A DNA stretch of 64,000 nt from positions 2,030 to 66,029 of the forward strand of contig JANQEX010000077.1 of the NCBI GenBank assembly GCA_028278105.1, read 5' to 3'. Position numbers and translations under genes: made by a program. The notes under the pieces were generated by a model, which searched no databases, had not been told where the DNA came from, and worked only from the letters and a program-made list of their open reading frames with translations. The stretch comes from Alphaproteobacteria bacterium. GTDB lineage: Bacteria; Pseudomonadota; Alphaproteobacteria; UBA9219; RGZA01. Positions 46,042-59,511 of this stretch are shown here, in pieces; the first letter of the stretch is position 1; every line of letters starts with the position of its first letter.

Positions 46042-46270
46042 GATTCAGAGATCAGAGATCAGAGGTCAGAGGTCAGAAGTTAGAGGTCAATAGTCGATTG
46101 CAGAAAAGCTTATACAACGCAGGAAGGCCGGACTCCCCTCCCCTTGAGGGAGGGGTTGGGGGTGGGGTTTAAGCAGGGTCTCAAGGGTCATAAGGGTCAT
46201 GAGGGTCTTTTATGTTGACCCCTTCTGACCCTATTGACCCTTACGACCCTTTCACGACCCTCTCGACCCT
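46041..46270. repeat. Composite repeat region: heptamer tandem (TCAGAGA/TCAGAGG x7), a family-5 hairpin and a family-4 array
   Basis: 46041-46095 TCAGAGATCAGAGATCAGAGGTCAGAGGTCAGAAGTTAGAGGTCAATAGTC. 46128-46169 CCCCTCCCCTTGAGGGAGGGGTTGGGGGTGGGGTT. 46172-46270 is a GGGTCA/TGACCC array whose last CTAG supplies the stop of the next gene. Confidence 0.75.
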
Positions 46271-47108
46271 AGAAGCTCACCATCTCCACCACGCCGCCCT
46301 GCGCGTCAAGGCAGGTGGCGTGAATCATACCATCAAGGGGTTTGCCGTCATCAAGGGTTAACAGAAAGCCTTTTTTTCCGGTATTTTCTCCGCCCGCGCC
46401 CCGGATGACCCGCGCATAGGGCGGCCAGGCTTTCGGCGGCGGCCCGCCGGGCAGGGGCCGGGTCAGCGCCTCGCGTTGCAGGTTGAGAGGCCGGCGCGGG
46501 TCGAATCCCTCCGGCACGAAGGCAAGAGGATGGGGCCCTTCGCTGCGCGCGGCGGCGAACTGGTTTTCAAAAAAAGGCAGATGGCCCGGTTGCGCGGCAA
46601 GCCGCCTGCGCCATTCGCTGGCGAAACGGTTGGCGGAGATCCGGTCGCCGGTCGCGGTTTGCAGGTCGCCGGGTCCGAACCCGTAGGGGCCGAGCGCGCA
46701 TTCCAGCCCGTCCGCCAGCGCTTTTTCCGCCCATTCCCGCGCGTCCGGCAAAAAGGCAAGGCGCGGCAGATCCTGCACCATCGCTTCCATTTTTCCGCGC
46801 AGGAAAACCACGTCGCGCGCGAAAAAACCCGGTATGGCGATGATGGCGTTGCGGAACGCCACCAGCTCGCCGATCAACGCCAGCCCCTCGCCGGTCCAGT
46901 GGCTGTGGGGACCCAGGTAGTTGCCAAGATACACCACGCGCTCGAACGGCCTCAGCCGGCGGATCAGCATTTCGTGCAACTGGCACAGCCCGCCATGGCG
47001 TCCGTGCAGCGATCCGATGGCCCAGATACGCTCCGGCCGTCCCAGCGCCGCGGCGGGGCTTGCGGCTGGCGGGCGAAAATCGGCGAAAGAGGCGGCAGGC
47101 AAGGACAT
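46269..47108 (-). CDS. Calcineurin-like metallophosphoesterase
   Basis: 279-aa ORF with phosphoesterase motifs (WAIGSLHG, GNYLGPH, a later GH region). Confidence 0.55.
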   Translation of the reverse strand: MSLPAASFADFRPPAASPAAALGRPERIWAIGSLHGRHGGLCQLHEMLIRRLRPFERVVYLGNYLGPHSHWTGEGLALIGELVAFRNAIIAIPGFFARDVVFLRGKMEAMVQDLPRLAFLPDAREWAEKALADGLECALGPYGFGPGDLQTATGDRISANRFASEWRRRLAAQPGHLPFFENQFAAARSEGPHPLAFVPEGFDPRRPLNLQREALTRPLPGGPPPKAWPPYARVIRGAGGENTGKKGFLLTLDDGKPLDGMIHATCLDAQGGVVEMVSF

Positions 47109-47195: not shown

Positions 47196-47382
47196 CGGGC
47201 GCGCCCGCGCCCGGCTTCGCCTGCGGCACCGCCGAGGTTTTGGCTATTCGTCACGCCGAAGCTTGCGGAGGCGGAAAAGCCGGGGCCAGCATGACATGAA
47301 TATATTTCCCCTCCCTCAAGGGGAGGGGAGTCAAGGCGGGCAGAGGGAGGAGGAGGTGATTTTCATTCCCCTCCCTCCGGCC
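47196..47382. repeat. REP2 copy followed by two family-5 hairpins
   Basis: 47196-47290 GCGCCCGCGCCCGGCTTCGCCTGCGGCACCGCCGAGG...GCGGAGGCGGAAAAGCCGGGGCC. 47304-47382 TTCCCCTCCCTCAAGGGGAGGGGAG...TTCATTCCCCTCCCTCC. Confidence 0.7.
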
Positions 47383-47681
47383 TAGCTTTGTCAAAGCTCC
47401 AGCAGGGGCGGGAGTGATTTGTTCAAACGGTTCCACAACCCCCGCGAAATACGGGTTGACCCCTGTTCATGAATCCCCCAGTATTTTCGCGGAAACGGCC
47501 TCTGCCGTTTCCGGGGTGTAGTAACCTCACACAAAGCGGTGTTTAGCGTTGCCGATACGAACGTTGCCTCCGGTCCGTCGGGCTGGGAGGCAGTGGCGTA
47601 TGTCCAAGCCTCACGGCCAAAGGCCTCTGCAATCGTCTTTGTGCGATTTACTAACTCCCAGTCACCAGGGGGAGTTTGAGC

Positions 47682-47978
47682 GTGGGCGCTTGCCGGGCCA
47701 TCGCCGTTATGGGCGTCATCGCAGGAATCGCGACTCTAACTGTTGCCGCTGCCGCAAGCGCACCGCCGGTAACGGGCGGGCTGAAGGACGAGACTCTTGT
47801 CCCTGAAAAAGCAATTACGCAGAACGAACGCGCGAAGCCGCCGCCGCCCTGTCCCAAGGTGATCGGCACGGAGCCGGTGGACATGTCGCGCTGCCGGCAT
47901 CGCGTCGTGACCGGTGCGGCAAGGCCCAAGCCCTATCCCGTCATCCCCGCCCTTTTCCCTACGCCGGGTAAGCCATGA
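47682..47978 (+). CDS. Small hypothetical secreted protein, translationally coupled to the downstream repeat protein
   Basis: RBS GGGGGAG seven nt upstream of GTG 47682. Signal-peptide-like N-terminus (AIAVMGVIAGIATLTVAAAASA). The stop overlaps the downstream ATG (ATGA). Confidence 0.45.
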   Translation: MGACRAIAVMGVIAGIATLTVAAAASAPPVTGGLKDETLVPEKAITQNERAKPPPPCPKVIGTEPVDMSRCRHRVVTGAARPKPYPVIPALFPTPGKP

Positions 47979-49711
47979 CGGGCCGGTTTGCCTTCCTTGC
48001 CGTCTTTTACGCCGCGCTGCTGGCAGGCTCCCCGCTTTATGCCGGCTGCGTGAACCCGCCGGGCGTGAACGGGGAGGCGATTTATAACGCGGATCACAAC
48101 GTCATGCAGTTCTGTGACGGCGCAAGCTGGATCAGCATGGCGGCTTCCGGTTCGGCCACCGAGGTGGACCCCAAGGTGGGCACGCTGGAAAACGGCAAAT
48201 GGTGTTCATCCAATGGTGTCATCATCACCTGCACCGAGGATGCGCCCGTCAGCGGCGCGGGCGGCTCCAGCGGGCAGGTGCAGTATAACACCGGCACCGG
48301 GCTTGGTGGTGCCGTGGCCGTCACCTATGCCACCTCCGGTGATCTGCTGATGCTTATATCGCAGGCGGCCACCGACATTCCCCTGGTGATAAAGGGCGCG
48401 GCGGACCAGACGGGGAATCTTCTGGAAATACGGGACTCCGATGACACGCCGCTGGTCACGGTCTCTTTTGCGGGCGTAATCGGCGGCTCCGGCGCATCGC
48501 TCACCAGCCTGAACGCCGATAGCCTCGCCAACGGCACAATCCCCGACGCGCGGTTTCCGGCCACGCTTCCCGCATCTTCGGGCGCGAACCTCACCGCCTT
48601 GAACGCCGGCAACATCTCCAGCGGCACGGTGGCCACGGCGCGGCTGGGTTCGGGAACGGCCAACAGTTCCACTTATCTGCGCGGGGACGGCGCCTGGACA
48701 AGCGTGAGCGCGGGCACGACCCTGCCCGATTGCGCGGACGGGCAAATCGTCGTGCGCCTGGACGGCGGATGGGTGTGCAAGAATCAGTTCACATGGGTCT
48801 GCTCCGTCACATGGACGCAGCGCACCGGCGCGGGCAGCCGGATCTGGTTCGACATCGCCAGCAGCAGCGACGGCGCCAAACTGGCGGCGGTGGTCCGCGG
48901 CGGCTATATCTACACCAGCAGCGACGGCGGCGCGACCTGGACGGCGCGCACCAGTGCGGGCAGCTGGGAGTGGATCGCCATCGCCAGCAGCAGCGACGGC
49001 GTCAAGCTGGCGGCGGTGAACGACTCCGACGACTATATTTACACCAGCAGCGACTCCGGCGCGACCTGGACGGCGCGCACCAGTGCGGGCAGCCGGAGGT
49101 GGAGCGGCATCGCCAGCAGCAGCGACGGCGTCAAGCTGGCGGCGGGAGTCTACGGCGGCTATATCTACACCAGCGATGACTTCGGAATGACCTGGACGGA
49201 ACAGACTGCCGCGGGCAGCCGGGAGTGGCTCTACATCGCCAGCAGCAGCGACGGCAGCAAGCTGGCGGCGGCGACAGCCAGAAGCTTCGGCTATATCTAC
49301 ACCAGTAGCGACAGCGGTGCGACCTGGACGGCGCGCACCGGCGCAGGCAGCCGGAGGTGGAAGGCCATCGCCAGCAGCAGCGACGGCGTCAAGCTGGCGG
49401 CGGGGGTCTACAACGGCTATATCTACACCAGCAGCGACAGCGGCGCGACCTGGACGGAGCAGGCCGGCGCGGGCAGCCGGGTCTGGTACCGCATCGCCAG
49501 CAGCAGCGACGGCAGCAAGCTGGCGGCGACCGGCGTCGGCGGTTATATCTACACCAGCAGCGACAGCGGCGCGACCTGGACGGAGCAGTCCGGCGCGGGC
49601 AGCCGGACCTGGTACCGCATCGCCAGCAGCAGCGACGGCAGCAAGCTGGCGGCGGCTGTCTACAACGGCTATATTTACACCGGCGCCACAACTTGCGATT
49701 TTTTTGAGTGA
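47975..49711 (+). CDS. Secreted mosaic protein: phage-tail-fibre-like repeats plus eight BNR/Asp-box-like beta-propeller blades
   Basis: Signal peptide MTGRFAFLAVFYAALLAGSPLYAG. The central region (SLNADSLANGTIPDARFPATLPASSGANLTALNAGNISSGTVATARLGSGTANSSTYLRGDGAWTSV) resembles phage tail fibre repeats. It is followed by eight ~40-aa repeats IASSSDG.KLAA....GYIYTSSDSGATWT..T.AGSR.W containing S-x-D-x-G-x-T-W boxes. Confidence 0.65.
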   Translation: MTGRFAFLAVFYAALLAGSPLYAGCVNPPGVNGEAIYNADHNVMQFCDGASWISMAASGSATEVDPKVGTLENGKWCSSNGVIITCTEDAPVSGAGGSSGQVQYNTGTGLGGAVAVTYATSGDLLMLISQAATDIPLVIKGAADQTGNLLEIRDSDDTPLVTVSFAGVIGGSGASLTSLNADSLANGTIPDARFPATLPASSGANLTALNAGNISSGTVATARLGSGTANSSTYLRGDGAWTSVSAGTTLPDCADGQIVVRLDGGWVCKNQFTWVCSVTWTQRTGAGSRIWFDIASSSDGAKLAAVVRGGYIYTSSDGGATWTARTSAGSWEWIAIASSSDGVKLAAVNDSDDYIYTSSDSGATWTARTSAGSRRWSGIASSSDGVKLAAGVYGGYIYTSDDFGMTWTEQTAAGSREWLYIASSSDGSKLAAATARSFGYIYTSSDSGATWTARTGAGSRRWKAIASSSDGVKLAAGVYNGYIYTSSDSGATWTEQAGAGSRVWYRIASSSDGSKLAATGVGGYIYTSSDSGATWTEQSGAGSRTWYRIASSSDGSKLAAAVYNGYIYTGATTCDFFE

Positions 49712-49739
49712 CAATCCTTCAAGGGACGCGGCTTTTTTT

Positions 49740-50050
49740 ATCCCCCTCCCTTTGGCCCGCCTTCGCTAAAGCTCCGGCGAGGTCCTTGAAGAAAGCCCGT
49801 CCGCCGAAGCCCGCAGGGCGGAGGCGGAGAGGGGTTAGGGGAGGGTGTGTAAACAGGGTCACAAGGGTCAGGAGGGTCAAAGACCCTTTTGACCCTTTCG
49901 CCCCCTTATGCCCCTCAGTTATCCCTCCCCCTTGCCCCCTCCCGGAGGGAGGGGGGATGGGATTTTCATTCCCCTCTCTCTGGCCGCCTGCGCTAAAGCT
50001 GCGGCGGGCGCATTTGCAAGTGTGCCCTGCGAAGCCGAAGACGAAGCAGG
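49740..50050. repeat. Composite repeat region (family-5 hairpins, a family-4 array and REP3-like palindromes)
   Basis: 49852-49912 is a GGGTCA/TGACCC array. 49925-49975 CCCTCCCCCTTGCCCCCTCCCGGAGGGAGGGGGGATGGGATTTTCATTCCCCTCTC. 49985-50050 is REP3-like (GCGCTAAAGCTGCGGCGGGCGCATTTGCAAGTGTGCCCTGCGAAGCCGAAG). Confidence 0.65.
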
Positions 50051-50069
50051 CTGGCGGGAGCGGGAATGC

Positions 50070-50323
50070 CTAGGTTCGATGGACAATTACCAAGACGAAC
50101 ATTCCCGCCCCCGCCTGTCCGCCTCCGCAAGCTTCGGCGCGACGGGTACGCCAAAACCTCGGCGTAGCCGCAGGCGAAGCCGGGCGCGGGGGCAGGCTCC
50201 AGCGGGAATCCCATTTGTTTTCAAGAACAAATTGGATTCCGGGTCGCGGTTGCTGCGCAACCTTGCCCGGAATGTTCATCTCGTCTTTTCAATGACTTGA
50301 GTTTAATTGTCCATTGAACCTAG
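50070..50323. mobile_element. MITE-A copy with a REP2 element nested at the apex
   Basis: TIRs CTAGGTTCGATGGACAATTACC...GTTTAATTGTCCATTGAACCTAG. The REP2 insert (about 50108-50205) sits between CATTCCCGC and GGGAATCCC, exactly as in the copy at 11290. Confidence 0.8.
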
Positions 50324-50403
50324 GGGCTGGACTCATTATACCAACAAGCTTACGAACCGACACAGGCTCCGGCGGGAACAGGAATGCGCATATTCCAAAA
50401 TGC

Positions 50404-51561
50404 TCAAAGCCCGGAAACGGCCAGAACTTCCGCCGCCGGGTTTTGGGCGCGGAAACCCGCCGTCATCTCGGCATGATGCGCGCCGCCATTCAAAAGGATC
50501 AGGGCCGGTTTGCCTTCCATCACAGCCGGCGCAAAAACCTGCATCCGTGTGCCGTAAAGCCGCCGGCCCTGCTTGACGAGGCTGTTGTCCAGCAGTCCCT
50601 TGATCTTTGATTGATCCAGGCCGAAGGTGAACAGATATTGCGAATAGATGCTGGCCGGAGCGACATAGACCGGCGCTTCGCTTTGCGTAACCCGCCGGTT
50701 CAGCGCTTCAACCTTGCGCTGGAAGGTGGCGAAATATTCCCGCACGAGATGAAGAGTGGCGTCCCCGCCGCCCGCAAAGGGCGTGGCGCTTTCGAATGCC
50801 CCGTCCCGCTCGAACGCCAGGAAAACCGAATGGCCGGCGCCATGGGCTTCACGCGCGGCAAGCCGGAAACCGTGCTGCCGGAACAAAACAACCAGATTAT
50901 CGACCGGGCAATAAAAACTGTGTTCCCAGTTGACCGCGCCCGGTTCGCCGCGCGCCAGCCATTTCGCCAGATCGGGCCAGGCCACAAGCACCCGTCCGCC
51001 CCGCGGCAGACGCTGGCCCAGCAGGTTTACGATTTCGCGCGGCTTATACATGTGTTCCAGCGAATGGCAGAAAACCAGGGTGCGCACGCCTTCGGGCAGG
51101 CTGAAACTTTCATCAAAAAAGCCGCGCGCCAGCTTTAAGTTGGGGATCGGATCGCCGCTGATCAGCGGATTCGGCTCCAGAATATGCCAAACGGGCTCGG
51201 CATTGCTGGCGCGGAACGCGCGCGCAAGACGTCCGCCGCCGCCACCGACTTCCAGAACATCCGCCACCCGGTTCGCCGCGACGAATCCGGCAAAGGCGGC
51301 ATTGTGCGCATCCCACGCCTTGCCGAGGCCGGTGGCGTGCCCGCCCTGATACACGATTTCCAGCGGCACAAGCTCCGCCAACTGGGCGGCGCCGCATGTT
51401 TCGCACGCCTCCCAACGCATGGGAAAGGCCAGGTCTTCCGATGCGGGCGTATCCACGCATCCCTGGAACAGGGGCATGGGCGGCGTGGCGAAGGCCGGGA
51501 CAAGCTTTGTCCCGTGGCACAACATACAGCGCGCGCGGGGAATGAGTTCTGGCGGCATCAT
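50404..51561 (-). CDS. Class I SAM-dependent methyltransferase with an N-terminal zinc-ribbon (sugar C-methyltransferase-like)
   Basis: N-terminal CxxC...CxxC (CMLCHG...CETCG), SAM-binding motif VLEVGGGGG, and a C-terminal methyltransferase domain typical of NDP-sugar C-methyltransferases. Confidence 0.6.
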   Translation of the reverse strand: MMPPELIPRARCMLCHGTKLVPAFATPPMPLFQGCVDTPASEDLAFPMRWEACETCGAAQLAELVPLEIVYQGGHATGLGKAWDAHNAAFAGFVAANRVADVLEVGGGGGRLARAFRASNAEPVWHILEPNPLISGDPIPNLKLARGFFDESFSLPEGVRTLVFCHSLEHMYKPREIVNLLGQRLPRGGRVLVAWPDLAKWLARGEPGAVNWEHSFYCPVDNLVVLFRQHGFRLAAREAHGAGHSVFLAFERDGAFESATPFAGGGDATLHLVREYFATFQRKVEALNRRVTQSEAPVYVAPASIYSQYLFTFGLDQSKIKGLLDNSLVKQGRRLYGTRMQVFAPAVMEGKPALILLNGGAHHAEMTAGFRAQNPAAEVLAVSGL

Positions 51562-52367
51562 GACCGGAATCCCTTTTCGGCAACCGTCTGGCAGGTATAG
51601 CGAAAACCGGGCGCGCCGTGATTTTCCTCCAGAAACTTTTTTCGCGCAAAACTGTAGGAAACCAGTACGCCAAGAATTTTCGCGGCCTGCCTGAACAATC
51701 TGGCGTTGGAAACCTGATCCTCCTCATGCCAGTTGACCGGCACATATTTCAGCTTCCGCCCCTTGGCGCACATGGTGAGAAGAAAATAGCAGTGAAAGGT
51801 CAGGTCGTCCGCGGCTTTGGCGTAGTCACCCTCTTTCAGCACCGTGGGGCCGTAAAGATTGAGGCCGGAGCCCATGTCGCGGATCAGCCGCCCGCTGCAC
51901 AGCGTGAACAGGGTGTTGAACACAAAATTGCCGAACTGCCGGAAAGTGCCGTACCCATAAAGCCGCGAGCCCTTCATGAAGCGCGAGCCGAGCATCACAT
52001 CGGCCTGCACATGCTCCCCCGCCTGAAGATGCGGAACGAAATCGCGGATATCGGCCTGATCGTCGCCATGCAGGGCGATGACATGCGTGAAGCCGTGATC
52101 CAGCGCATGGCGGAACGCCACCTTGTGCGAGCCGCCAAGACTGTAATTCGCATCGTTGATGACAAGCCGCGTGGGGATGGGCGGGGCCGCGCCCATGGCG
52201 GCTTCGGCCGCCTCCAGGCTGCCGTCGGGCGAGCGGTTGTCAACAACCAGAACCTCCGCCACCACGCCCGCGGCGTATTTGTAAACCTTTTCCAGCACGC
52301 GCCCGATCTGCGGCGCGCAGCGGTACATGGGAATAAAAAGAAGGATTTTCCCTGGGGGAACGCTCAC
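51558..52367 (-). CDS. Family 2 glycosyltransferase (polyprenyl-phosphate sugar synthase-like)
   Basis: 269-aa ORF with GT2 motifs (VLVVDNRSPDGS, DxD-like HGDD). Overlaps neighbours by 4 nt on both sides, indicating an operon. Confidence 0.65.
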   Translation of the reverse strand: MSVPPGKILLFIPMYRCAPQIGRVLEKVYKYAAGVVAEVLVVDNRSPDGSLEAAEAAMGAAPPIPTRLVINDANYSLGGSHKVAFRHALDHGFTHVIALHGDDQADIRDFVPHLQAGEHVQADVMLGSRFMKGSRLYGYGTFRQFGNFVFNTLFTLCSGRLIRDMGSGLNLYGPTVLKEGDYAKAADDLTFHCYFLLTMCAKGRKLKYVPVNWHEEDQVSNARLFRQAAKILGVLVSYSFARKKFLEENHGAPGFRYTCQTVAEKGFRS

Positions 52368-52433
52368 GCCATACTCCGAAAAACGTCAGCCTGTTTTTAC
52401 CATTCCACACATACGGACACAAATATATGGATT

Positions 52434-54353
52434 TCATCCCTTCCGGGCCGGTTTCCCCGTCCCACCGCAATCGACTTTCAGCGCCTTCACGGTTGCGTCG
52501 AAATAGTCCTGCGGCAAGTTGATGTGCCAAACATAACGATCATCGGCCATCTGCGCGATGGGCTGGGTCGGCACCGGCACAAAGCCGGGGCGCGTGCGTT
52601 TCTCCAGCAGCACGGCCCGGTCCGGGCAGGCCTCGCGCGCCACCGCCTGCGGGAAATTCACCTCTTCATGATAGCGGGCCGAGGGCCAGATGAAGGTGAA
52701 AATCACCGCACCATGCGTGAGGACCAGAAAAGCCAGCAGCGCCGGGCCAAAGAGCACCAGCTTTTTCATGCGCCCGCCCAGGCGCCGCGCGGCAAGGTCC
52801 AGCAGCAGCAGCACCGCGACCATGCCCATGATGTTCAGCCCGTAGTAATAACGGTCGGGGAAACTGGTGCCGTAATGACCAAGAAAAGCCGACAGGCCGC
52901 GCCGCTGGACGGCCACGCCCAGAATGTAAACCGCAAAGCCGCTCCAGGCGCACCAGACCGGAAGCAGGTCGTCAAGCTTGCATGCGCGCAAACGCCAGTA
53001 AAGCCATGCGGCGGCGGCGGCAAATAATAGCGCCAGCTCCACCACCAGCGTGTCGTTCAGCAGACGGTAAACCGGCGCGATGATCGGAAACAACAGCATG
53101 CGCGCCAGCACGAACTCGATCATCGCCTCGCGCTTGACCTCAAGGCCGCCCGCTCCTCCGGCAAAAGTGAACATGTCGGACGGCATCAGCAAGAAGGTTC
53201 CGCCCATCAGCAGCAACGCCGCCACGGGAACGCCCCATAAAAAAGCCTTGCGCGTTCCGCGCTGCCGCCGCCAAAGCCACAGGGCGTAAAACGCCGCGTA
53301 AACCGGCACAAGGCCGAAGGTGACCGGAAAGGTCAGCATGCAAATGAAGAACACGGCAAGGCAAGCGGCCTGAAGGCGCAGATCCTCCGGCTTCATCAGG
53401 GCGCGGATCATGACGACCAGCGCGATGACCGGAAACAGATAGGCCAGGTTCAGGATCCGCCCCAGCACCTCGTTATTCTCGCCGCCCATGGGCATCAGCA
53501 GCAGGAAGCCCCACAGGGAAAGCCGGGTCAGAAGATGAAAGCGCTTGCGGAAAAGCGCAAAAGGCAGCAGCGCCACGCCCGCCATGAAGGCCCAGGAGAC
53601 GCAGGCGTAAATCTGCGGCAGATAAACCAGCGACTTGCCGAAAAACAGCCCGTTCAGGCCAAGGCCGATGAAATGAAGGATGGAGGAGCCCAAAACGGGA
53701 AAGCCCTGCCGCGCGTGAAGGCCCGTTTCCCATACGCCTTTTTCCAGAAGCTTGCCGGTCCAGGGGCCGTCCTCGCCGTAAAGGATGGGAAAAACGAAAG
53801 GATCGGCATTGCGCAGCACCAGCAACGCCACGCCAAGAATGAACAGCGCCGCCATGAACAGCCGGGGCCGGCTATCGTCCAGCCGCTTGAGGGCGCGATA
53901 CCAATTGCGCAGGAACGCGCCGCGCAGCACCAGCCTTTCGCTTGTCAGCCGCGCCACCAGAAAGTTCAGGGCCAACGTGAAGGGCGTAACGATGATCTTG
54001 GCGGCAACGGCGGCGGCGGCGGGATTCAGAAAGGGCAGCATCAGGGGTTGCAACGCGCCGATGGCGGCCGAAGCGGCGATAATCGCCGCCAGGGAATAAA
54101 CAATGTAAAAGGCTATTTTCCTGGTCAGCGCCGTTTCGTTTTTGCGGAAGATGCGCTCATGCGCCACGATGAAGGCAAAGGTCATGCCCACGCAGCCGCT
54201 GACCAGATTGGCGACGAAGGGAGAAAATCCCGTCCACGACACCAGAGCCGTGAACACGGCCATGTCCAGCAGCCATCCCAGCCCCGACGCCGCCGCGAAA
54301 GGCAGAAAGGTTCTGGGCGGAAGAATTTTGAAAACCCGTGCGAGAGGATTCAT
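52434..54353 (-). CDS. GtrA-domain fused to a large polytopic membrane protein (putative GT-C-type glycan transferase)
   Basis: The N-terminal ~140 aa form four TM helices with the GtrA-family pattern (FAAASGLGWLLDMAVF...GMTFAFIVAHERIF...AKIIVTPFTLALNFLVAR). About 500 further aa contain more than 10 TM helices. Confidence 0.55.
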   Translation of the reverse strand: MNPLARVFKILPPRTFLPFAAASGLGWLLDMAVFTALVSWTGFSPFVANLVSGCVGMTFAFIVAHERIFRKNETALTRKIAFYIVYSLAAIIAASAAIGALQPLMLPFLNPAAAAVAAKIIVTPFTLALNFLVARLTSERLVLRGAFLRNWYRALKRLDDSRPRLFMAALFILGVALLVLRNADPFVFPILYGEDGPWTGKLLEKGVWETGLHARQGFPVLGSSILHFIGLGLNGLFFGKSLVYLPQIYACVSWAFMAGVALLPFALFRKRFHLLTRLSLWGFLLLMPMGGENNEVLGRILNLAYLFPVIALVVMIRALMKPEDLRLQAACLAVFFICMLTFPVTFGLVPVYAAFYALWLWRRQRGTRKAFLWGVPVAALLLMGGTFLLMPSDMFTFAGGAGGLEVKREAMIEFVLARMLLFPIIAPVYRLLNDTLVVELALLFAAAAAWLYWRLRACKLDDLLPVWCAWSGFAVYILGVAVQRRGLSAFLGHYGTSFPDRYYYGLNIMGMVAVLLLLDLAARRLGGRMKKLVLFGPALLAFLVLTHGAVIFTFIWPSARYHEEVNFPQAVAREACPDRAVLLEKRTRPGFVPVPTQPIAQMADDRYVWHINLPQDYFDATVKALKVDCGGTGKPARKG

Positions 54354-54395
54354 GCGGACGCCTCATCATCTGACAAACGACAGGAACACTTTACT

Positions 54396-54518
54396 CTAGG
54401 GCCAATAGACAATTACCAACATGAACATTCCCGCGAAAGCGGGAATCCCATTTATCTTCAAAAACAAACGGGATTCCGCAGGCGCGGCTGCTTCACAACC
54501 TTACCCGGAATGTTCATT
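54396..54518. mobile_element. MITE-A, degenerate right-truncated copy
   Basis: CTAGGGCCAATAGACAATTACCAACATGAACATTCCCGCGAAAGCGGGAATCCCATTTATCTTC...GGAATGTTCATTAATGG lacks the right TIR. Confidence 0.65.
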
Positions 54519-55920
54519 AATGGAAGTCATTGCCTCCGCCGCGATAGGGACCCAGGCGCCGCTCATGCAGTCTTTGCTTGATGGCCAGCGCCTCGGATGC
54601 CGAAGGGTAAAGCGATGAATCCTCCGGCACGCTTTTGTCATGCACGGCATAGGCTTTGCTTAAACTCCGGTTCAGGCCTTGCGCCTCGTCCACAATCGCC
54701 CAGGCCCGCGCATAAGTTGTGCAGCTAAGCGCCAGAAGAAGCACGGCCGCGGCCCATCCCGCTCGCGCGGCGAATCCGCCTTTCAGCCGGGTCAAAAACG
54801 GCAAGGCCCTTTGAAGATCACAACAAGCCGCAAGCAGTCCGAAATACATGATATTCGCAACAATGGTGGTGGGCGACACGCCGGCATGGGCAACGCCATA
54901 TCCGGGGAGCGCGCCGCGTCCATAGCCGACGGCGCCGGCGACCAGAACCGCATAGGACACGGCCAGCACAAAAAAACCATTGCGTGTTTCCGCCAGTCTT
55001 TCGCGTTTTCGCAGAACATGAATGAAATACGCTGCGGCAAGGGCGCAGACGACGCCGCCGCAAACGGCGTTGATCGCGTATTCGCTGGCATGGCCGAACA
55101 TGCCGATGTGATACATCCAGACAAGGTTGCCAAGCGGCTTGCCCAGAAATACGAGCACGTAAAGCGCAAGATCAATGACTCCCGGATGTTCCTGCGCCGT
55201 AAACGGCAGTCCCGGAAAATACAGCGCCGCCGCCGCCGTGGCATTGGCGATCCAGAAGGCTCTTTCCATCCATGTCGTTTTTCGCAGAAACAGCACCAGC
55301 AGCAACACCGGCAAGAAGGCCAGGATGCCGCTGGCAAAGCTGTAAGTGGCGAACCATAGAAGAATGGCCGCCAAAATCCGCGACGGCCAGCGCCGGGCGG
55401 CTTGCGCCAGCAATACATAGGCGCAGAGCACATAGGCGCAGCACATCACGAGTTCGATCATGAAGCTCCACCACATGTTCACATGCTGCGCGGGCGAAAA
55501 GCCAAGAATGGCCGCCGCGCCCAGTATCGCCGTCCGTTCCCAGCCTCCAACATTGGCCGGGAGGACGCGATGGAGGAAAAAAAGAACGGCCGCCACCTGC
55601 CCGGTCTGGAACAGGTTGAGCAGAACGAATTCCCAGCGCAGGTTCCATCCCGACAGCAGGGCGGGACCCAGCAGCAAAAGCCGTGGCGCGGCGATGCGAT
55701 GCTCGTTATGCGGCTGGAAGATGCGGGAAAGCGTCAGCGCGCCGTCATGGGCGGAAGCGACCAGCGAGGAAGTGTCCCCCGCATGATCCCAGAAGGGATG
55801 GACCAGCGCGCCCGACTGGGAAAAGGCCACATAGTAAAGCGCGGGCAGAAGGACGAGCAGCCACGCTGTCCAAGCAGGCAGTGATATTTTGTCAGCGAAG
55901 AAAGGCTTTGTCATCGGCAT
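54517..55920 (-). CDS. Polytopic membrane protein (possible GT-C glycosyltransferase / polymerase)
   Basis: 467-aa ORF with at least 10 hydrophobic helices, located in the glycan cluster. No soluble-domain motifs. Confidence 0.45.
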   Translation of the reverse strand: MPMTKPFFADKISLPAWTAWLLVLLPALYYVAFSQSGALVHPFWDHAGDTSSLVASAHDGALTLSRIFQPHNEHRIAAPRLLLLGPALLSGWNLRWEFVLLNLFQTGQVAAVLFFLHRVLPANVGGWERTAILGAAAILGFSPAQHVNMWWSFMIELVMCCAYVLCAYVLLAQAARRWPSRILAAILLWFATYSFASGILAFLPVLLLVLFLRKTTWMERAFWIANATAAAALYFPGLPFTAQEHPGVIDLALYVLVFLGKPLGNLVWMYHIGMFGHASEYAINAVCGGVVCALAAAYFIHVLRKRERLAETRNGFFVLAVSYAVLVAGAVGYGRGALPGYGVAHAGVSPTTIVANIMYFGLLAACCDLQRALPFLTRLKGGFAARAGWAAAVLLLALSCTTYARAWAIVDEAQGLNRSLSKAYAVHDKSVPEDSSLYPSASEALAIKQRLHERRLGPYRGGGNDFH

Positions 55921-56215: not shown

Positions 56216-56295
56216 AACGGCAGGCCGGAGCCTGCCGTCTCATTTTGTGAACAACGTCTTGTTAACGGTAAGACGCCGTTTTCTAATCAGCTGTT
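56216..56295 (-). ncRNA. Predicted tracrRNA of the type II-C system
   Basis: The minus strand at 56272-56292 is a perfect 21-nt complement of the crRNA repeat segment GACGCCGUUUUCUAAUCAGCU, extendable with a bulge. Downstream on the minus strand lie the hairpin AACAAGACGTTGTT and the terminator GACGGCAGGCTCCGGCCTGCCGT-TTTTTGTTT. The upstream promoter is TTGACG-N18-TAAAAT (56300-56329). Confidence 0.7.
56217..56238 (-). terminator. Rho-independent terminator hairpin (tracrRNA 3' end)
   Basis: ACGGCAGGC-CGGA-GCCTGCCGT stem-loop followed on the minus strand by UUUUUGUUU. Also U-rich on the plus side. Confidence 0.7.
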
Positions 56296-56299
56296 GCGA

Positions 56300-56329
56300 A
56301 TTTTAGCCGGCCGGGCTTATCGTCGTCAA
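56300..56329 (-). promoter_or_regulatory. Predicted sigma70 promoter of tracrRNA (minus strand -35 TTGACG, 18-bp spacer, -10 TAAAAT)
   Basis: Reverse complement of 56324-56329 is TTGACG and of 56300-56305 is TAAAAT. The hexamers are the same as in the repeat-embedded promoters of the array. Confidence 0.5.
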
Positions 56330-56353
56330 GGCAATTTAATAGGGGGACAAGCA

Positions 56354-59300
56354 ATGAAAACCCGTCTTGCGCTTGATCTAGGCTCAACATCACTCGGATG
56401 GTGCCTTCTGGAAATGAACAATGAGGCGCCCACAGGCATAAAAGCCATGGGAGTACGCATATTTCCCGACGGACGCGACAATCAGTCCAAGAAGCCCCTG
56501 GCTGTTGCCAGGCGCTTGGCGCGCGGCATGCGCCGCAATCATGACCGGCGAAAATGGCGGCGGCAATTGCTGATGTCTTATCTCGTGGAGAAAGGACTTA
56601 TGCCTTCCACGAAAAGCGAACAAAAGGAACTGGAAAAGCTTGACCCATACGAACTTAGGGCCAGGGCAATCAAGGAAAAACTGTCGCCCTTTCAAATTGG
56701 CCGGGCCTTGTTTCATATAAATCAGCGCCGCGGATTCAAAAGCAATCGAAAAACAGATAAAAAGGAAAATGACGCAGGCGCAATGAAGAACGCCATAAGG
56801 GATTTGGATGGCAAGCTAATGTCTTCCGGCTACCGGACACTTGGCGCCTATTTGAACAATCTCCATCAAGAGAACAAGCCCGTTCGCGTTCGCCGCGCTG
56901 TGGTCGGGAAAGAGACTTCGTATAACTTCTATCCTGAAAGAAAAATGTACGAAGAAGAAGTTGACCGGATTCTGAAAGAGCAGGAAAAGCACCACCCAAT
57001 CCTTACCGAAGAGATTTGCAGGCGAATCAAGGAAATCATTTTTTTCCAGCGCCCCCTGAAACCAGCGAAAGTTGGGAATTGCGTCTTTGAAAATAGAGAG
57101 CCCAGAGCCCGGCTCGCCCTGCCAATTGTGCAAAAATTCCGCATTCTGCAAGAAGTAAACAACCTGGAGATTGAAGATTTTGGTTGTGGCGAAAGGCAAT
57201 TAACGCAGGAGGACCGGAAAAAGATCATCGAGCGCCTCCGCGTCAACAGGCGGATAACCTTTAAGGGTTTACGGAAATTTCTCAAGCTTGGCAGCGATCT
57301 CCGGTTCAATCTTGAAAGTGACAAAAGAGATGAACTGGCTGGTGATGTAACCTCGTGCCTGTTATCCGACGACAGGGCTTTTGGTTCACGGTGGCAAAAA
57401 CTGACGGACGATGAACGGGAAAAAATTGTTGAATTGCTTTTTGAGGAATCTCATGAGGAGAAACTAATCCATGCGCTTGCAGGGCAATTTGGGGCCACGC
57501 CCGAACAGGCCCTTTATGTTTCCGGCCTTGATCTTCCCGACGGCTATGGCCGTGTGAGCAAAAAAGCCATTCAGAAAATGCTTCCTCATCTGGAGGCGGG
57601 TTGCCGTTATGCGGAAGCCGCAAAAAGGGCCGGTTATCATCATTCTGACTTTCGAACAGGAGAGGTTTTCGACGAGCTACCCTATTACGGGCAGGTCTTG
57701 CAAAGCCAGGTGATCGGCGGAAGTTACAGCGAAGATGATAAGGCGAGTCCCGAACTCTATTACGGCAGAATTAACAACCCTTCGGTGCATATTGCGCTCA
57801 ACCAGTTGCGCAAGCTTGTTAACTCCATCATCGCCGCATACGGCAAGCCGGATGAGTTCGTCATCGAACTGGCGCGGGATTTAAAAGAACCTGCCGGCAA
57901 GATTCTTGAGGAACAGTCAAAAAACACAAAAGACAACAAACGCATCAGCGCCGAACTGGAAAAACTTGGCGTGAGAAACAATTATCGCAACCGCATGCTT
58001 TATAAATTGTGGGAAGATTTGGCCAAACAGCCGGAACGGCGTTGTTGCCCCTTCAGTGGCACGCAAATTTCCGCCGCGGACATTTTTTCAGGAAAATTCG
58101 AGGAAGAGCATCTTCTGCCCTTCTCCCGCAGCTTTAACGATGGAAGGGCCAACAAGGTTCTCTCCCGTGTCGACTGGAACCGGAAGAAAGGCAACCGCTC
58201 TCCTTTCGACGCTTTTGGTCACGAGCCTTTCTGGCCGGATATTATGGCCCGTGTACAAAATCTGCCTGCAAACAAGCAATGGCGGTTTAAAAAAGACGCA
58301 TGGACGCGGATGGAAGGCGAAGACGGCGTCATTGCCCGCATGCTGAACGACACACGCTACATGTCGCGTCTTGCCAAAGCCTATCTATCCGCTGTCTACG
58401 ATAACGAGAAAGGCAAAAGCAGTGTTTGGGCGTCAAACGGACAGCTTACGGCGCTGCTTCGCAAAAAGCTGGGCCTGAACGCTCTCCTTGGCGAGGACGA
58501 TTCCAAGGACAGGGCCGATCATCGTCATCATGCGGTTGACGCTTTTGTTGTCGGCCTTGGTGACCGGGGCTTATTGAGAAAGGTTTCGGATGCCGCCCGA
58601 CGCATGGAAACCACGGAGGGGCTTTGGGAAAAACGCCAGAAACTCGTGGAAGGTCTGGAAGAACCTTTTCCCGAATTCAGGGAAAAACTGGTCAATCATC
58701 TGGAGACCCTGGTTGTTTCCTTCAAACCGGATCACGGCAATGCACAAAAAGCCGTCCATGCAGCCCCGCCCTACACCATTGCCCCGCTGCACGATCAAAC
58801 GGCTTGCGGATTTATCGGCAAGGGAGAAGGAAATAACACTGTACTTGTCGCAACCCGCAGGCCCGTTGAAAGTCTTGAAAAGATCAAGCATATAGAGGAA
58901 ATAGCCGACGCCGTTATCCGCAATGAACTGCTTCAGGCCGTAAAAGGCCTTAAAGAAAAAAGCACGGAGTGGAAACAGGCCCTCGCGGCCTTCACGGCAC
59001 GGACAGGCACGAGAAGAGTTCGTGTCCACATTAAGCGGAGCAAGGACACCCTTATTGGCATTTCCTCCGGCCATCAGCAAAACAATCCCTACAAATACTA
59101 TGCAACCGGCGGAAATTACTGCGCGGAAATTTATTGTCCTGACAAGGGCAGGCTTGCCGGCAAATGGCAATGCGAGGTGATTTCGAACTATGACGCGCAC
59201 CGGAAGGACTTTGTGCCCGAATGGAAAAAACAGAATCCTGCCGCAAAACGGGTCATGCGCCTGCAAATAGACGACATGGTTGCCTACGAGAAGGATGGGG

Positions 59301-59500
59301 AAACCGTCATCGCGCGCGTGAAAAAAATTGCAAAAGGCCATGGCGGCCGAATCTACTTCCGCAAGCACACCGTTGCGAAGGAAGAGGCCGACAAACTTAG
59401 TTGGTGTGCTTTTGTTTCACGCATGCAAGCGGCAAATTTGCGAAAAATTTCCGTTGATATTATTGGCCGCGTGCGTGACCCAAGGGCCAGAGTCGCATAG
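56354..59500 (+). CDS. cas9: CRISPR-associated endonuclease Cas9, type II-C (1048 aa)
   Basis: RuvC-I MKTRLALDLGSTSLGWCLLE at the N-terminus (RBS AGGGGGA upstream). HNH motif EEEHLLPFSRSFNDGRANKVL...NRKKGNRSPFDAF. Arginine-rich bridge helix (RRLARGMRRNHDRRKWRR). Compact size and no csn2/cas4 nearby. The track ORF start at 56294 is an upstream in-frame extension. Confidence 0.9.
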   Translation: MKTRLALDLGSTSLGWCLLEMNNEAPTGIKAMGVRIFPDGRDNQSKKPLAVARRLARGMRRNHDRRKWRRQLLMSYLVEKGLMPSTKSEQKELEKLDPYELRARAIKEKLSPFQIGRALFHINQRRGFKSNRKTDKKENDAGAMKNAIRDLDGKLMSSGYRTLGAYLNNLHQENKPVRVRRAVVGKETSYNFYPERKMYEEEVDRILKEQEKHHPILTEEICRRIKEIIFFQRPLKPAKVGNCVFENREPRARLALPIVQKFRILQEVNNLEIEDFGCGERQLTQEDRKKIIERLRVNRRITFKGLRKFLKLGSDLRFNLESDKRDELAGDVTSCLLSDDRAFGSRWQKLTDDEREKIVELLFEESHEEKLIHALAGQFGATPEQALYVSGLDLPDGYGRVSKKAIQKMLPHLEAGCRYAEAAKRAGYHHSDFRTGEVFDELPYYGQVLQSQVIGGSYSEDDKASPELYYGRINNPSVHIALNQLRKLVNSIIAAYGKPDEFVIELARDLKEPAGKILEEQSKNTKDNKRISAELEKLGVRNNYRNRMLYKLWEDLAKQPERRCCPFSGTQISAADIFSGKFEEEHLLPFSRSFNDGRANKVLSRVDWNRKKGNRSPFDAFGHEPFWPDIMARVQNLPANKQWRFKKDAWTRMEGEDGVIARMLNDTRYMSRLAKAYLSAVYDNEKGKSSVWASNGQLTALLRKKLGLNALLGEDDSKDRADHRHHAVDAFVVGLGDRGLLRKVSDAARRMETTEGLWEKRQKLVEGLEEPFPEFREKLVNHLETLVVSFKPDHGNAQKAVHAAPPYTIAPLHDQTACGFIGKGEGNNTVLVATRRPVESLEKIKHIEEIADAVIRNELLQAVKGLKEKSTEWKQALAAFTARTGTRRVRVHIKRSKDTLIGISSGHQQNNPYKYYATGGNYCAEIYCPDKGRLAGKWQCEVISNYDAHRKDFVPEWKKQNPAAKRVMRLQIDDMVAYEKDGETVIARVKKIAKGHGGRIYFRKHTVAKEEADKLSWCAFVSRMQAANLRKISVDIIGRVRDPRARVA

Positions 59501-59511
59501 GAACAGGGATA

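What the first reader, a model, noticed from the sequence alone, without database searches (positions are those of the whole stretch)
47975..49711. Secreted mosaic protein combining phage-tail-fibre-like repeats with an eight-bladed BNR-like propeller
After a signal peptide and a Cys-containing N-terminal module, residues around 170-240 carry the GTV..ARLGSGTA...L.GDG.WT pattern typical of phage tail fibre repeats. The C-terminal 330 aa consist of eight tandem ~40-aa units (IASSSDG.KLAA..YGGYIYTSSDSGATWT.RT.AGSR.W), each with an S-x-D-x-G-x-T-W Asp-box as in sialidase/BNR beta-propellers. A short signal-peptide ORF (47682-47978) is translationally coupled upstream. This looks like a domesticated phage receptor-binding module fused to a glycan-binding propeller, a candidate adhesin, lectin or contact-dependent effector.
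Basis: partly seen in the sequence, partly recalled or inferred. Interest (0 to 1): 0.6.

Follow-up and report, generated by a model that had tools for sequence, protein, structure and literature searches.

The report
Secreted tail-fibre-like protein with propeller tip
This gene encodes an exported protein built like a phage tail fibre, with a conserved head, a short stalk and a seven-bladed propeller tip, and it belongs to an uncharacterised bacterial family that swaps tips much as the prey-recognition fibres of predatory Bdellovibrio do.

Summary
The ORF 47975-49711 (578 aa) is real. Its mosaic nature is confirmed, but the propeller has seven blades, not eight.

Layout: signal peptide (SPase I type, not a lipobox), a conserved 140-aa Cys-containing head, an 85-aa stalk, a disulfide neck, and a 7-bladed Asp-box propeller.
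- The stalk matches annotated cyanophage and pelagiphage tail fibres.
- The propeller has AF2 pLDDT about 98, and its best PDB fold match is Ycf48.

The head defines a polymorphic family, mostly in Alphaproteobacteria. Members share the head and carry different C-terminal tips, including Peptidase_S74 self-cleaving fibre ends. This is the same design logic as the Bdellovibrio MAT fibres.

Only one other protein among 5.8 billion clusters shares the full architecture. The neighbourhood is housekeeping genes, not prophage.

The upstream small ORF is real. It has a signal peptide, an ATGA stop/start overlap with the target, and is conserved in position in four other loci.

Further upstream lies a structured 100-nt leader related to sRNA-Xcc1, below the Rfam threshold. 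It recurs before family genes in 9 loci with strong covariation.

Most likely function: a surface or extracellular fibre adhesin whose propeller loops bind a ligand. Glycan binding, trimerisation and localisation are all untested.

The parts
47576..47676 (+). Structured 5' leader RNA related to sRNA-Xcc1 (RF02221). It has a P1 stem enclosing two hairpins and ends at the Shine-Dalgarno of the small ORF.
   Evidence: Rfam gives a full-length but sub-threshold match (33.5 bits, GA 53). Equivalent matches occur in L001, L063 and L014. My own model R1 finds 10 copies in 9 loci, all upstream of family genes. In the alignment 94.9% of cells are paired, 16 of 28 pairs carry compensatory changes, and 0 of 500 shuffles reach this.
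47682..47978 (+). Small ORF of 98 aa: signal peptide, Pro-rich, two Cys, ending ..PGKP*. Its stop overlaps the target start (ATGA).
   Evidence: Sequence read. GC3 is 0.70 against 0.55 in the leader. tblastn to L001 directly upstream of fibre gene P0185 gives E=2e-12. Same position, signal peptide and ATGA overlap in L076 and L063; the ..PGKP* end is shared with L001 and L076 (L063 ends ..SGTP*). Analogous small secreted ORFs occur in L050 and L105.
47975..49711 (+). Target gene: 578-aa secreted tail-fibre-like protein with a propeller tip.
47975..48043 (+). Signal peptide (aa 1-23), predicted SPase I cleavage after the invariant Ala23. Not a lipobox.
   Evidence: Alignment A1 has Ala23 and Cys25 invariant. 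Position -1 to Cys is G/D/A/N across the family, which is incompatible with a lipobox.
48044..48142 (+). N-terminal Cys-motif domain (aa 24-56): C-x2-P-x-G-x2-G-x3-Y-N-x6-M-Q-F-C-[DN]-G-x2-W.
   Evidence: Invariant columns in A1. AF2 shows a small beta domain with pLDDT about 84. The motif directly follows signal peptides in Alphaproteobacteria, Micavibrio and Pseudobdellovibrionaceae, and occurs as three tandem copies in L041.
48143..48469 (+). Rest of the conserved head (aa 57-165): a second Cys knot (DPKVGTLxxGKWCxxxGxxIxC) plus a QYN..TYAT..QAATD..L.IKGA..Q.GNL.E module.
   Evidence: It is 60-90% identical in P0002 and P0122-P0138 while their C-termini differ. These modules, but not the signal peptide plus first Cys motif, also occur in 6 viral contigs.
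48470..48724 (+). Stalk (aa 166-250): two units of ..LT.LNA..L..GT.P.AR.. followed by GSGTA..STYLRGDG.W.
   Evidence: tblastn hits annotated tail fibres of Synechococcus phage S-SRM01, Prochlorococcus phage P-SSP7 and pelagiphages. It is the most frequent match region among 6363 representatives. AF2 monomer pLDDT is below 50 here.
48725..48802 (+). Cys-containing neck (aa 251-276): DCADGQIVVRLDGGWVCKNQFTWVC.
   Evidence: Cys253, 268 and 276 are conserved in P0002. Cys574 at the C-terminal end is also conserved. AF2 shows a beta-hairpin with pLDDT 57-83.
48803..49708 (+). Seven-bladed Asp-box (BNR) beta-propeller (aa 277-578). Its 42-44-aa units have an invariant framework and variable loop positions.
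   Evidence: TRF, Pfam, AF2 pLDDT about 98 with 7x4 strands, Foldseek Ycf48 TM 0.75, blade alignment.
47201..47293 (.). Left copy of a dispersed intergenic repeat. It forms a 93-nt inverted pair with 50100-50193 around the cassette.
   Evidence: the repeat finder I1/I2: 44 nt at 93% plus 56 nt at 79%. The core has 8 copies across the window, so it is not cassette-specific.
50100..50193 (.). Right copy of the same dispersed repeat, in inverted orientation.

Best explanation
The gene encodes a Sec-exported, tail-fibre-like fibre protein of a polymorphic family.

How it probably works:
- A conserved N-terminal head (aa 24-165) is the constant part. It most likely attaches the protein to the cell envelope or to a common partner.
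- A short tail-fibre-type stalk and a disulfide neck project the variable part.
- The variable part here is a seven-bladed Asp-box propeller. Its invariant scaffold carries variable loops that bind a ligand on another surface, either a glycan or a peptide.
- The protein is made from a three-part cassette: a structured sRNA-Xcc1-like leader, a small secreted Pro-rich protein, and the fibre gene. The two ORFs are translationally coupled by an ATGA overlap.

It works like a phage receptor-binding protein or a Bdellovibrio MAT fibre, that is, a conserved anchor with a swappable tip.

Shown:
- The domain layout and the seven-bladed propeller fold.
- Family polymorphism, including Peptidase_S74 tips.
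- Similarity of the stalk to phage tail fibres.
- Conservation of the small ORF and of the leader RNA.
- A non-phage chromosomal context.

Inferred:
- Trimerisation.
- Surface localisation.
- Anchoring through the head.
- Ligand binding by the propeller.
- Regulation by the leader.
For: Architecture:
- Signal peptide and Cys motifs.
- AF2 propeller with pLDDT about 98 and seven blades.
- Foldseek top hits are Ycf48, E about 2e-15, TM 0.75.

Family:
- The 287-aa N-terminal query gives 6363 representatives.
- A subgroup shares aa 1-165/245 at 60-85% identity but has unrelated C-termini.
- Pfam finds Peptidase_S74 in P0130, P0136 and P0155, with weak, below-cutoff DUF1554 and C1q matches in P0122 and P0123.

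Phage relationship:
- The stalk matches annotated tail fibres.
- BFVD phage proteins carry the same propeller. A DUF6242 protein gives TM 0.84 at 29% identity, and a Synechococcus phage S-CBWM1 BNR protein also matches.
- Long alignments extend to S74-containing Caudovirales proteins.

The propeller as a display or binding module:
- Among the top 120 propeller homologues it is fused to prepilin N-termini (P0012, P0053, P0055, P0089, P0113), Ig-like, FN3 and collagen-like scaffolds.
- Blades keep an invariant framework, with variation confined to positions 8, 13-17, 31-34 and 39-44 of the unit.
- There is no sialidase RIP motif.

Not housekeeping:
- Only P0002 (78% identity) shares the full architecture.

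Not prophage:
- The neighbours are ribF, ileS, lspA, an M16 peptidase, xth, lolA and ftsK on one side. A glycosyltransferase operon and CRISPR-Cas lie on the other.

Cassette:
- Small ORF conserved.
- Leader conserved.

Analogy:
Against: - No experimental or predicted evidence for trimerisation of this protein. The AF2 monomer gives pLDDT below 50 for aa 57-240. The head alone gave pLDDT 63.
- No route across the outer membrane is identified.
- The ligand is unknown. The closest solved fold, Ycf48, is a periplasm/lumen-type assembly factor that binds a peptide, not a glycan.
- PHROGs gives no tail-fibre family for the protein.
- Homology of the head to the MAT N-domain could not be tested.
- The organism is an unsampled Rhodospirillales-like alphaproteobacterium of unknown lifestyle.
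Confidence: 0.55

Rival explanations
1. The protein is a secreted tailspike-like enzyme. In this reading the propeller is a glycoside hydrolase (sialidase, GH74 or 'F510_1955'-like) that degrades a polysaccharide, and the fibre part targets it to the substrate.
For: NCBIfam gives a partial hit to the F510_1955 family glycosylhydrolase, E=6.6e-19. Some homologues are named exo-alpha-sialidase by NCBI. GH74 xyloglucanases are among the Foldseek hits. Phage endosialidases combine a propeller with an S74 fibre (established knowledge).
Against: The NCBIfam score is 68 bits against a cutoff of 175. There is no RIP motif. It has seven blades, not the six of GH33. The blades are near-identical, with no differentiated catalytic residues. 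The best fold match is the non-enzymatic Ycf48. GH74 needs two propellers forming a cleft.
Confidence: 0.15
2. The gene is a true phage or tailocin structural gene, left behind as a prophage remnant or a tail fibre of a cryptic element.
For: Sequence and fold similarity to phage tail fibres. Modules of aa 59-155 are found in 6 viral contigs. The cassette is flanked by inverted repeat copies.
Against: A cleavable signal peptide is conserved family-wide. There are no phage genes within about 15 kb on either side. The flanking repeat is a dispersed genomic element with 8 copies in the window. The signal peptide plus first Cys motif is never seen in viral contigs. GC3 is 0.85, like the host genes.
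Confidence: 0.05
3. The protein is a periplasmic scaffold or assembly factor analogous to Ycf48 or BamI, that is, a housekeeping envelope protein.
For: The best PDB sequence and fold matches are Ycf48. There is a weak NCBIfam BamI hit. The neighbouring genes lolA and lspA are envelope-related.
Against: Only one full-length homologue exists in 5.8 billion clusters. The family is polymorphic with S74 fibre tips. The NCBIfam scores are far below cutoff (20.8 against 370). The tail-fibre stalk has no role in such factors.
Confidence: 0.05
4. The protein is a polymorphic toxin or contact-dependent effector, in which the conserved N-terminus is a trafficking domain and the variable C-terminus a payload.
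For: A conserved N-terminus with a variable C-terminus is also the hallmark of polymorphic toxins. Relatives of the Cys motif are abundant in the predators Micavibrio and Pseudobdellovibrionaceae.
Against: No toxin domain appears in this protein or in the examined paralogues. Their tips are propellers, S74 fibres, and weak DUF1554 or C1q-like matches. There is no small immunity-like gene downstream, because 49712-50400 is repeat-rich and non-coding. The small ORF lies upstream and is itself secreted.
Confidence: 0.05

Closest known systems
Bdellovibrio bacteriovorus MAT (mosaic adhesive trimer) fibres (Caulton et al. 2024, PMC10769870)
   Same: Both have a signal peptide followed by a conserved N-terminal domain of about 130-140 aa, a tail-fibre-like stalk and highly variable C-terminal tips. 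Both families split into Peptidase_S74-terminated and non-S74 members. Both have phage-related building blocks in non-phage chromosomal loci.
   Different: The host is a Rhodospirillales-like alphaproteobacterium, not a Bdellovibrionota predator. The stalk is very short (about 85 aa, against fibres hundreds of Å long). The tip is a monomeric-looking 7-bladed Asp-box propeller, which is not reported among MAT tips. The cassette has an sRNA-Xcc1-like leader and a coupled small secreted ORF. Homology of the N-domains is untested, and trimerisation and surface display are unproven here.
Phage tail fibres and tailspikes (T7-like gp17 of P-SSP7; long tail fibre distal subunit of S-SRM01; K1F endosialidase type with a propeller plus S74 chaperone)
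   Same: The stalk motif is 57-73% identical over 34-68 aa. The logic of a conserved N-terminal attachment part with a variable distal receptor-binding part is shared. BNR-type propellers occur in phage structural proteins.
   Different: The target has a cleavable signal peptide and N-terminal Cys-motif domain that are absent from the phage hits. It has no phage neighbours. It has seven blades and no sialidase catalytic motifs.
Ycf48/HCF136 and other Asp-box seven-bladed propellers (Pfam BNR_6, Sortilin-Vps10, PSII_BNR)
   Same: A seven-bladed propeller with an Asp-box in each blade. Foldseek gives TM 0.70-0.75.
   Different: Sequence identity is only 16-20%. The blades here are near-identical repeats (65-83% to each other). 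The propeller is fused to a fibre, and there is no photosynthetic context.
sRNA-Xcc1 (Rfam RF02221), for the leader
   Same: The same three-helix architecture over the full 87-position model. It is likewise found directly upstream of unrelated cargo genes, such as symE in Xanthomonas integron cassettes and an ORF6N gene in APSE phage.
   Different: It scores 31-39 bits against a gathering threshold of 53. It has no U-rich 3' tail. It runs straight into a Shine-Dalgarno and start codon, so it looks like a cis-acting leader rather than a free sRNA. It is associated with an alphaproteobacterial fibre-gene family.

Membership tests
Asp-box (BNR) beta-propeller | Repeated S-x-D-x-G-x-T-W Asp-box, one per blade | tested here: met
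   Six exact Asp-boxes sit at aa 315, 358, 400, 444, 486 and 528. Pfam BNR_6 scores 51 bits against a cutoff of 27.
Asp-box (BNR) beta-propeller | Closed beta-propeller fold of four-stranded blades | tested here: met
   AF2 pLDDT is about 98 for aa 280-575, with 7 groups of 4 strands. Foldseek to Ycf48 gives E about 2e-15 and TM 0.75.
Sialidase / GH33 | Six-bladed propeller with an Arg triad (RIP motif) and a Tyr/Glu nucleophile pair | tested here: not met
   The propeller has seven blades. No R[IVL]P motif is present in the protein. Trans-sialidase PDB hits have E above 0.1.
F510_1955 family glycosylhydrolase (NCBIfam NF045728) | Score at or above the curated cutoff of 175 bits | tested here: not met
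   The score is 68.1 bits.
Bdellovibrio MAT fibres | Signal peptide followed by a conserved N-terminal domain of about 130 aa shared by all members | tested here: inconclusive
   An analogous conserved head (aa 24-165) exists in this family. Homology to the MAT N-domain could not be tested. No MAT N-domain sequence or structure was available, afdb50 was not available, and the head model had pLDDT 63.
Bdellovibrio MAT fibres | Variable C-terminal tips, with S74-terminated and non-S74 subgroups | tested here: met
   Peptidase_S74 is found in P0130, P0136 and P0155. Other members carry unrelated tips, and the target has a propeller tip.
Bdellovibrio MAT fibres | Trimeric fibre along the whole length | not testable with these tools
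   Only monomer AF2 is offered. The monomer stalk has pLDDT below 50.
Bdellovibrio MAT fibres | Display on the cell surface and a role in recognising other cells | not testable with these tools
   This needs localisation and phenotype experiments.
Phage tail fibre / receptor-binding protein | Sequence similarity to annotated tail fibre proteins | tested here: met
   tblastn against 50,697 phage records gives 14 records. They include the S-SRM01 long tail fiber (E=7e-12) and P-SSP7 gp17 (E=6e-6). PHROGs finds nothing.
Phage tail fibre / receptor-binding protein | Encoded within a phage, prophage or tailocin structural module | tested here: not met
   Pfam on neighbours between about 22.7 and 64 kb finds housekeeping, glycosyltransferase and CRISPR-Cas genes only.
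Bacterial lipoprotein | Lipobox [LVI][ASTVI][GAS]C at the signal peptide end | tested here: not met
   The target reads L-Y-A-G-C, with Tyr at -3. Family members have D or N at -1. The invariant Ala at -2 fits SPase I cleavage before the x-C.
sRNA-Xcc1 (RF02221), the leader | Score at or above the Rfam gathering threshold of 53 bits | tested here: not met
   Scores are 33.5 bits (window), 33.6 (L001), 39.0 (L063) and 31.7 (L014), all as full-length model matches.
sRNA-Xcc1 (RF02221), the leader | Conserved secondary structure supported by covariation | tested here: met
   Across 10 copies, 94.9% of cells are paired and 16 of 28 pairs have compensatory changes. No shuffle out of 500 reaches this, and slid controls give 32-49% paired. 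Caveat: the alignment was fitted to the model.
Polymorphic toxin system | C-terminal toxin domain with an adjacent immunity gene | tested here: not met
   No toxin family is found in Pfam or NCBIfam. The downstream 700 nt is repeat-rich and non-coding.

The most novel reading that the evidence does not exclude
Alphaproteobacteria, and possibly other non-predatory bacteria, may possess their own counterpart of the predator MAT fibres. This would be a tip-swappable, tail-fibre-derived surface fibre system. Its genes would be expressed from a dedicated cassette controlled in cis by an sRNA-Xcc1-type leader. The 3' arm of the leader's P1 stem can alternatively sequester the Shine-Dalgarno. The small co-translated secreted protein would serve as anchor or assembly partner. 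This reading would also recast the sRNA-Xcc1 family as a mobile 5' translational control element rather than a trans-acting sRNA.
Probability: 0.3. Interest if true: 0.75.

Novelty: new variant of a known kind. Interest (0 to 1): 0.55.

Why it matters
Tail-fibre-derived adhesins with interchangeable tips have been characterised only in Bdellovibrionota predators, where they recognise prey. A related design in an uncultured Rhodospirillales-like bacterium and in Rhodopseudomonas, Devosia and Hyphomicrobium would have three consequences.

- Repurposing phage receptor-binding architecture for the cell's own surface would be widespread rather than a predator speciality.
- It would supply a set of natural 'head plus swappable tip' proteins for studying or engineering surface recognition.
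- It would link the enigmatic sRNA-Xcc1 RNA family to a concrete cis-regulatory context that can be tested directly.

The propeller is one of the most abundant uncharacterised extracellular modules in metagenomes, with thousands of homologues. It is often fused to pilins in CPR bacteria. A ligand for it would therefore annotate a very large protein space.

Tried and rejected
1. Lipoprotein reading of 'AGC'. Rejected, because family members have D or N before the Cys.
2. Eight blades. Rejected in favour of seven.
3. Prophage or tailocin context. No phage genes were found around the locus, and there is no paralogue in the window.
4. The 93-nt inverted repeats as transposon ends or an invertible segment. 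Downgraded, because the repeat core has 8 dispersed copies in the window.
5. Tail-collar tip in P0126 and P0145, recalled from memory. Pfam did not confirm it, so I dropped it.
6. Looking up the contigs of P0001 and P0002 for context. Neither is on record, and cluster look-ups give no names.
7. Profile search of the head with the search for homologous proteins. It returned only 17 short fragments and was uninformative.
8. Linked-trimer AF2 prediction.
9. AF2 model of the head alone. pLDDT was 63 and pTM 0.34, too poor for fold search.
11. PDB sequence search of the N-terminal half and of P0136. No hits.
12. Single-sequence folding of the leader. The z-score was only -0.75, so the structure rests on covariation rather than on thermodynamics.
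13. Organism identification. This got only as far as 'Rhodospirillales-like alphaproteobacterium, IleS at most 70% identical to anything'.
Full report
**Observation**

The ORF at 47975..49711 (+) exists and encodes 578 aa. It starts with a typical signal peptide, MTGRFAFLAVFYAALLAGSPLYA|GC. Cysteines lie at 25, 47, 77, 86, 253, 268, 276 and 574.

The C-terminal half is a strong tandem repeat at the DNA level. TRF finds a 126-nt period, 6.8 copies, 80% matches and a score of about 1000 over 48812-49681. Pfam BNR_6 and Sortilin-Vps10 pass their cutoffs.

- There are seven IASSSDG units and six complete S-x-D-x-G-x-T-W Asp-boxes.
- An N-terminal VTWTQRT fragment closes the ring.
- AlphaFold2 gives aa 280-575 a pLDDT of about 98, with seven groups of four strands.
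- Foldseek's best PDB matches are the seven-bladed Ycf48 structures, with E about 2e-15 and TM 0.70-0.75 on the target.
- The only full-length homologue, P0002 (78% identity), also has seven units. Repeat number is therefore fixed by the closed fold and is not variable.

**The N-terminal half**

No Pfam, NCBIfam, PHROGs or PDB sequence match covers aa 1-280. An exhaustive HMMER search with aa 1-287 nevertheless finds 6363 cluster representatives. They fall into two layers.

The first layer is the region aa 172-250. It holds two ..LT.LNA..L..GT.P.AR.. units and then GSGTA..STYLRGDG.W. This is an extremely common building block that is present several times per protein.
- It matches annotated phage tail fibres. 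The Synechococcus phage S-SRM01 long tail fibre distal subunit gives 57% over 68 aa, E=7e-12.
- Prochlorococcus phage P-SSP7 gp17 gives 73% over 34 aa.
- Pelagiphages also match.
Only 14 of 50,697 phage records carry it, however, so it is not phage-specific.

The second layer is a subgroup that shares the signal peptide and aa 24-165 (up to 245 in some) at 60-85% identity: P0122-P0131, P0136, P0138, P0147 and others. These proteins then diverge completely.
- Their C-termini include GNVGIGT fibre repeats.
- Peptidase_S74 intramolecular-chaperone ends occur in P0130, P0136 and P0155.
- P0122 and P0123 give only weak, below-cutoff Pfam matches to DUF1554 and C1q.
- Only the target and P0002 carry the propeller.

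This is a polymorphic 'constant head, swappable tip' family.

**The head**

Ala23 and Cys25 are invariant, and the residue before the Cys is G, D, A or N. This excludes a lipobox and fits SPase I cleavage one residue before the first Cys.

The first 33 mature residues carry the motif C-x2-P-x-G-x2-G-x3-YN-x6-MQFC[DN]G-x2-W and form a small beta domain with pLDDT about 84. This motif directly follows signal peptides in many proteins:
- Alphaproteobacteria (Hyphomicrobiaceae, Devosia, Pseudovibrio, Thalassospira);
- the predator Micavibrio;
- Pseudobdellovibrionaceae, often as several paralogues in a row.

In L041 the motif occurs three times in tandem in front of a BNR-type propeller with no stalk. 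In L008 a single copy precedes a propeller plus RCC1 repeats. This behaviour looks like a binding or anchor domain rather than a mere export signal.

In viral contigs only the modules of aa 59-155 are found. The signal peptide plus first motif never appears there.

**Context**

The window's neighbours are ribF, ileS, lspA, an M16 peptidase, xth, lolA and ftsK upstream. Downstream lie a convergent methyltransferase, GT2 and GtrA-fused membrane protein operon, then a type II CRISPR-Cas locus. There is no phage or tailocin gene and no paralogue in the window.

IleS is at most 70% identical to anything in the database, and about 65% to Azospirillum, Skermanella and Stellaceae. The host is therefore a poorly sampled Rhodospirillales-like alphaproteobacterium. 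The window's proteins are singletons at 90% identity.

A 93-nt inverted repeat brackets the cassette, at 47201-47293 and 50100-50193. Its core occurs 8 times across the window. It is a dispersed intergenic repeat, not a dedicated transposon end.

**The cassette**

The small upstream ORF runs from GTG 47682 to 47978 and encodes 98 aa. It has its own signal peptide and a strong Shine-Dalgarno, and its stop overlaps the target's start codon as ATGA.
- It is conserved immediately upstream of the family gene in Rhodopseudomonas pentothenatexigens (L001, E=2e-12).
- It recurs in L076 and L063 with the same position, signal peptide, Pro-rich tail and ATGA overlap. The ..PGKP* end is shared with L001 and L076, while L063 ends ..SGTP*.
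- Analogous small secreted ORFs occur in L050 and L105.
- It is absent in L014, L045 and L128, so it is a frequent but optional partner.

**The leader RNA**

Upstream of the small ORF, about 170 nt of non-coding DNA is 86% identical to L001 by blastn, which is better conserved than the coding sequence.

Rfam matches the whole sRNA-Xcc1 model (RF02221) at 47581-47671. The score is 33.5 bits against a gathering threshold of 53. Equivalent sub-threshold full-length matches occur in L001, L063 and L014.

A covariance model built from six copies finds ten copies in nine loci. All are on the coding strand just upstream of a small secreted ORF or of a head-family gene, and L050 has two copies.
- On that alignment 94.9% of cells pair.
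- 16 of 28 pairs show compensatory changes, and no shuffle out of 500 reaches the observed values.
- Slid controls pair at only 32-49%.
- Caveat: the alignment was fitted to the model.

The 3' arm of P1 (CUCCC) can alternatively pair with the Shine-Dalgarno (GGGGAG) in the MFE fold of the leader plus 25 nt. This suggests translational control but does not show it.

Published sRNA-Xcc1 copies also sit directly upstream of unrelated genes. Examples are symE in Xanthomonas integron cassettes and an ORF6N gene in APSE phage. This fits a cis-acting leader.

**What the propeller does**

Thousands of proteins share this propeller at 40-68% identity, fused to many display scaffolds. These include prepilin N-termini in Patescibacteria and Saccharibacteria, Ig-like and FN3 domains, collagen repeats, and the same tail-fibre stalk in other phyla (P0026, P0031, P0079, P0101, P0109). 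Phage proteins in BFVD carry it too.

The seven blades are 65-83% identical to each other. Variation is confined to a few loop positions, and orthologous blades of P0002 are no closer than paralogous ones. This is the pattern of a rigid scaffold presenting variable loops.

There is no RIP motif. The 'glycosylhydrolase' NCBIfam hit is far below cutoff, and GH33 sialidases have six blades. I therefore favour a binding role over catalysis. The ligand, whether glycan or peptide, is open.

**Comparison with known systems**

The closest functional analogue is the MAT family of Bdellovibrio bacteriovorus. MAT proteins have a signal peptide, a conserved beta-rich N-domain of about 130 aa of unknown partner, a trimeric phage-like fibre, and S74 or non-S74 tips that recognise prey surface molecules (PMC10769870). 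So far MAT fibres are reported only in Bdellovibrionota.

The family found here shares every architectural rule that could be tested. Three things could not be tested: homology of the heads, trimerisation, and surface display. I therefore say it works like a MAT fibre or a phage receptor-binding protein, without filing it as a member.

**Verdict**

- The finding is real, and its 'mosaic, phage-derived' reading is largely right.
- Corrections: seven blades; not a lipoprotein; glycan binding unproven; no effector evidence.
- Additions: it is one tip variant of a polymorphic head-plus-tip family, and it is expressed from a conserved leader–small ORF–fibre cassette.
- Novelty: a new variant of a known kind.
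- Interest: moderate (0.55). It would be higher if the cis-regulatory leader and a non-predator MAT-like system are borne out.

Noticed in passing
window 47576-47676 (+); also L001 9631-9731, L063 2158-2258, L076 1368-1470, L014 9804-9909, L045 9812-9916, L050 2862-2967 and 3436-3542, L105 5448-5581, L128 5785-5881: A structured RNA of about 100 nt related to sRNA-Xcc1 (RF02221, sub-threshold) sits upstream of head-family genes. It shows strong covariation, and an alternative pairing could sequester the Shine-Dalgarno. It looks like a cis-acting leader rather than a free sRNA.
   Followed up: yes
window 47682-47978 (+): A small secreted Pro-rich ORF is translationally coupled to the fibre gene by an ATGA overlap. 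It is conserved in position, and in L001 and L076 in its ..PGKP* end, but variable in the middle. Its function is unknown, possibly an anchor or assembly partner.
   Followed up: partly
window 56294-61803: A type II CRISPR-Cas locus with lower GC (about 50-53% against 62% elsewhere). It comprises Cas9 (1068 aa, 56294-59500), Cas1 (59512-60420), a probable Cas2 (60417-60755), and an array of 15 repeats of 36 nt with 30-nt spacers (60826-61785).
   Followed up: partly
window 47201-47293 and 50100-50193; further copies near 70, 327, 11386, 26295, 42110 and 42340: A dispersed intergenic repeat family with at least 8 copies of the core GCCCGGCTTCGCCTGCGGC. Two copies in inverted orientation bracket the leader–small ORF–fibre cassette. 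They could mediate recombination but are not cassette-specific.
   Followed up: partly
window 47288-47403, 49724-49778, 49935-50006: A second repeat type containing CCCCTCCCTC/GGGGAGGGG hairpins (55-nt unit, 3 copies) lies on both sides of the cassette. It resembles REP/BIME-like elements.
   Followed up: no
L050 2862-8632: A metagenomic locus with this order: leader, small ORF, second leader, an S74-terminated fibre gene, a second head-family gene (5965-7116), an orphan S74 fragment (7325-), and a tyrosine recombinase on the opposite strand (8033-8632). This hints at tip exchange or mobility of fibre cassettes.
   Followed up: no
L041 3326-5960; L008 3267-15094; L017; L011: The N-terminal Cys motif occurs in tandem arrays of paralogous secreted proteins in Micavibrio, Pseudobdellovibrionaceae and other Alphaproteobacteria. 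It is sometimes triplicated within one protein and is fused to propellers, RCC1 repeats, DUF1566-like ends or Gly-rich tails. In L008 the preceding gene combines a pilin-like N-terminus with an S74 end.
   Followed up: partly
window 50404-55920 (-): A convergent operon of a methyltransferase, a GT2 glycosyltransferase, a 639-aa GtrA-fused polytopic membrane protein and a 467-aa unknown protein. It is a surface-glycan modification locus next to the fibre gene. Any functional link is unexamined.
   Followed up: no
window 46269-47108 (-) and 22749-24770 (-): Two sizeable ORFs (279 aa and 673 aa) have no Pfam match. The 673-aa one has an unusual codon-position GC (GC1 0.81, GC3 0.66) and overlaps two + strand ORFs of about 328 aa, so the gene call there is uncertain.
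   Followed up: no
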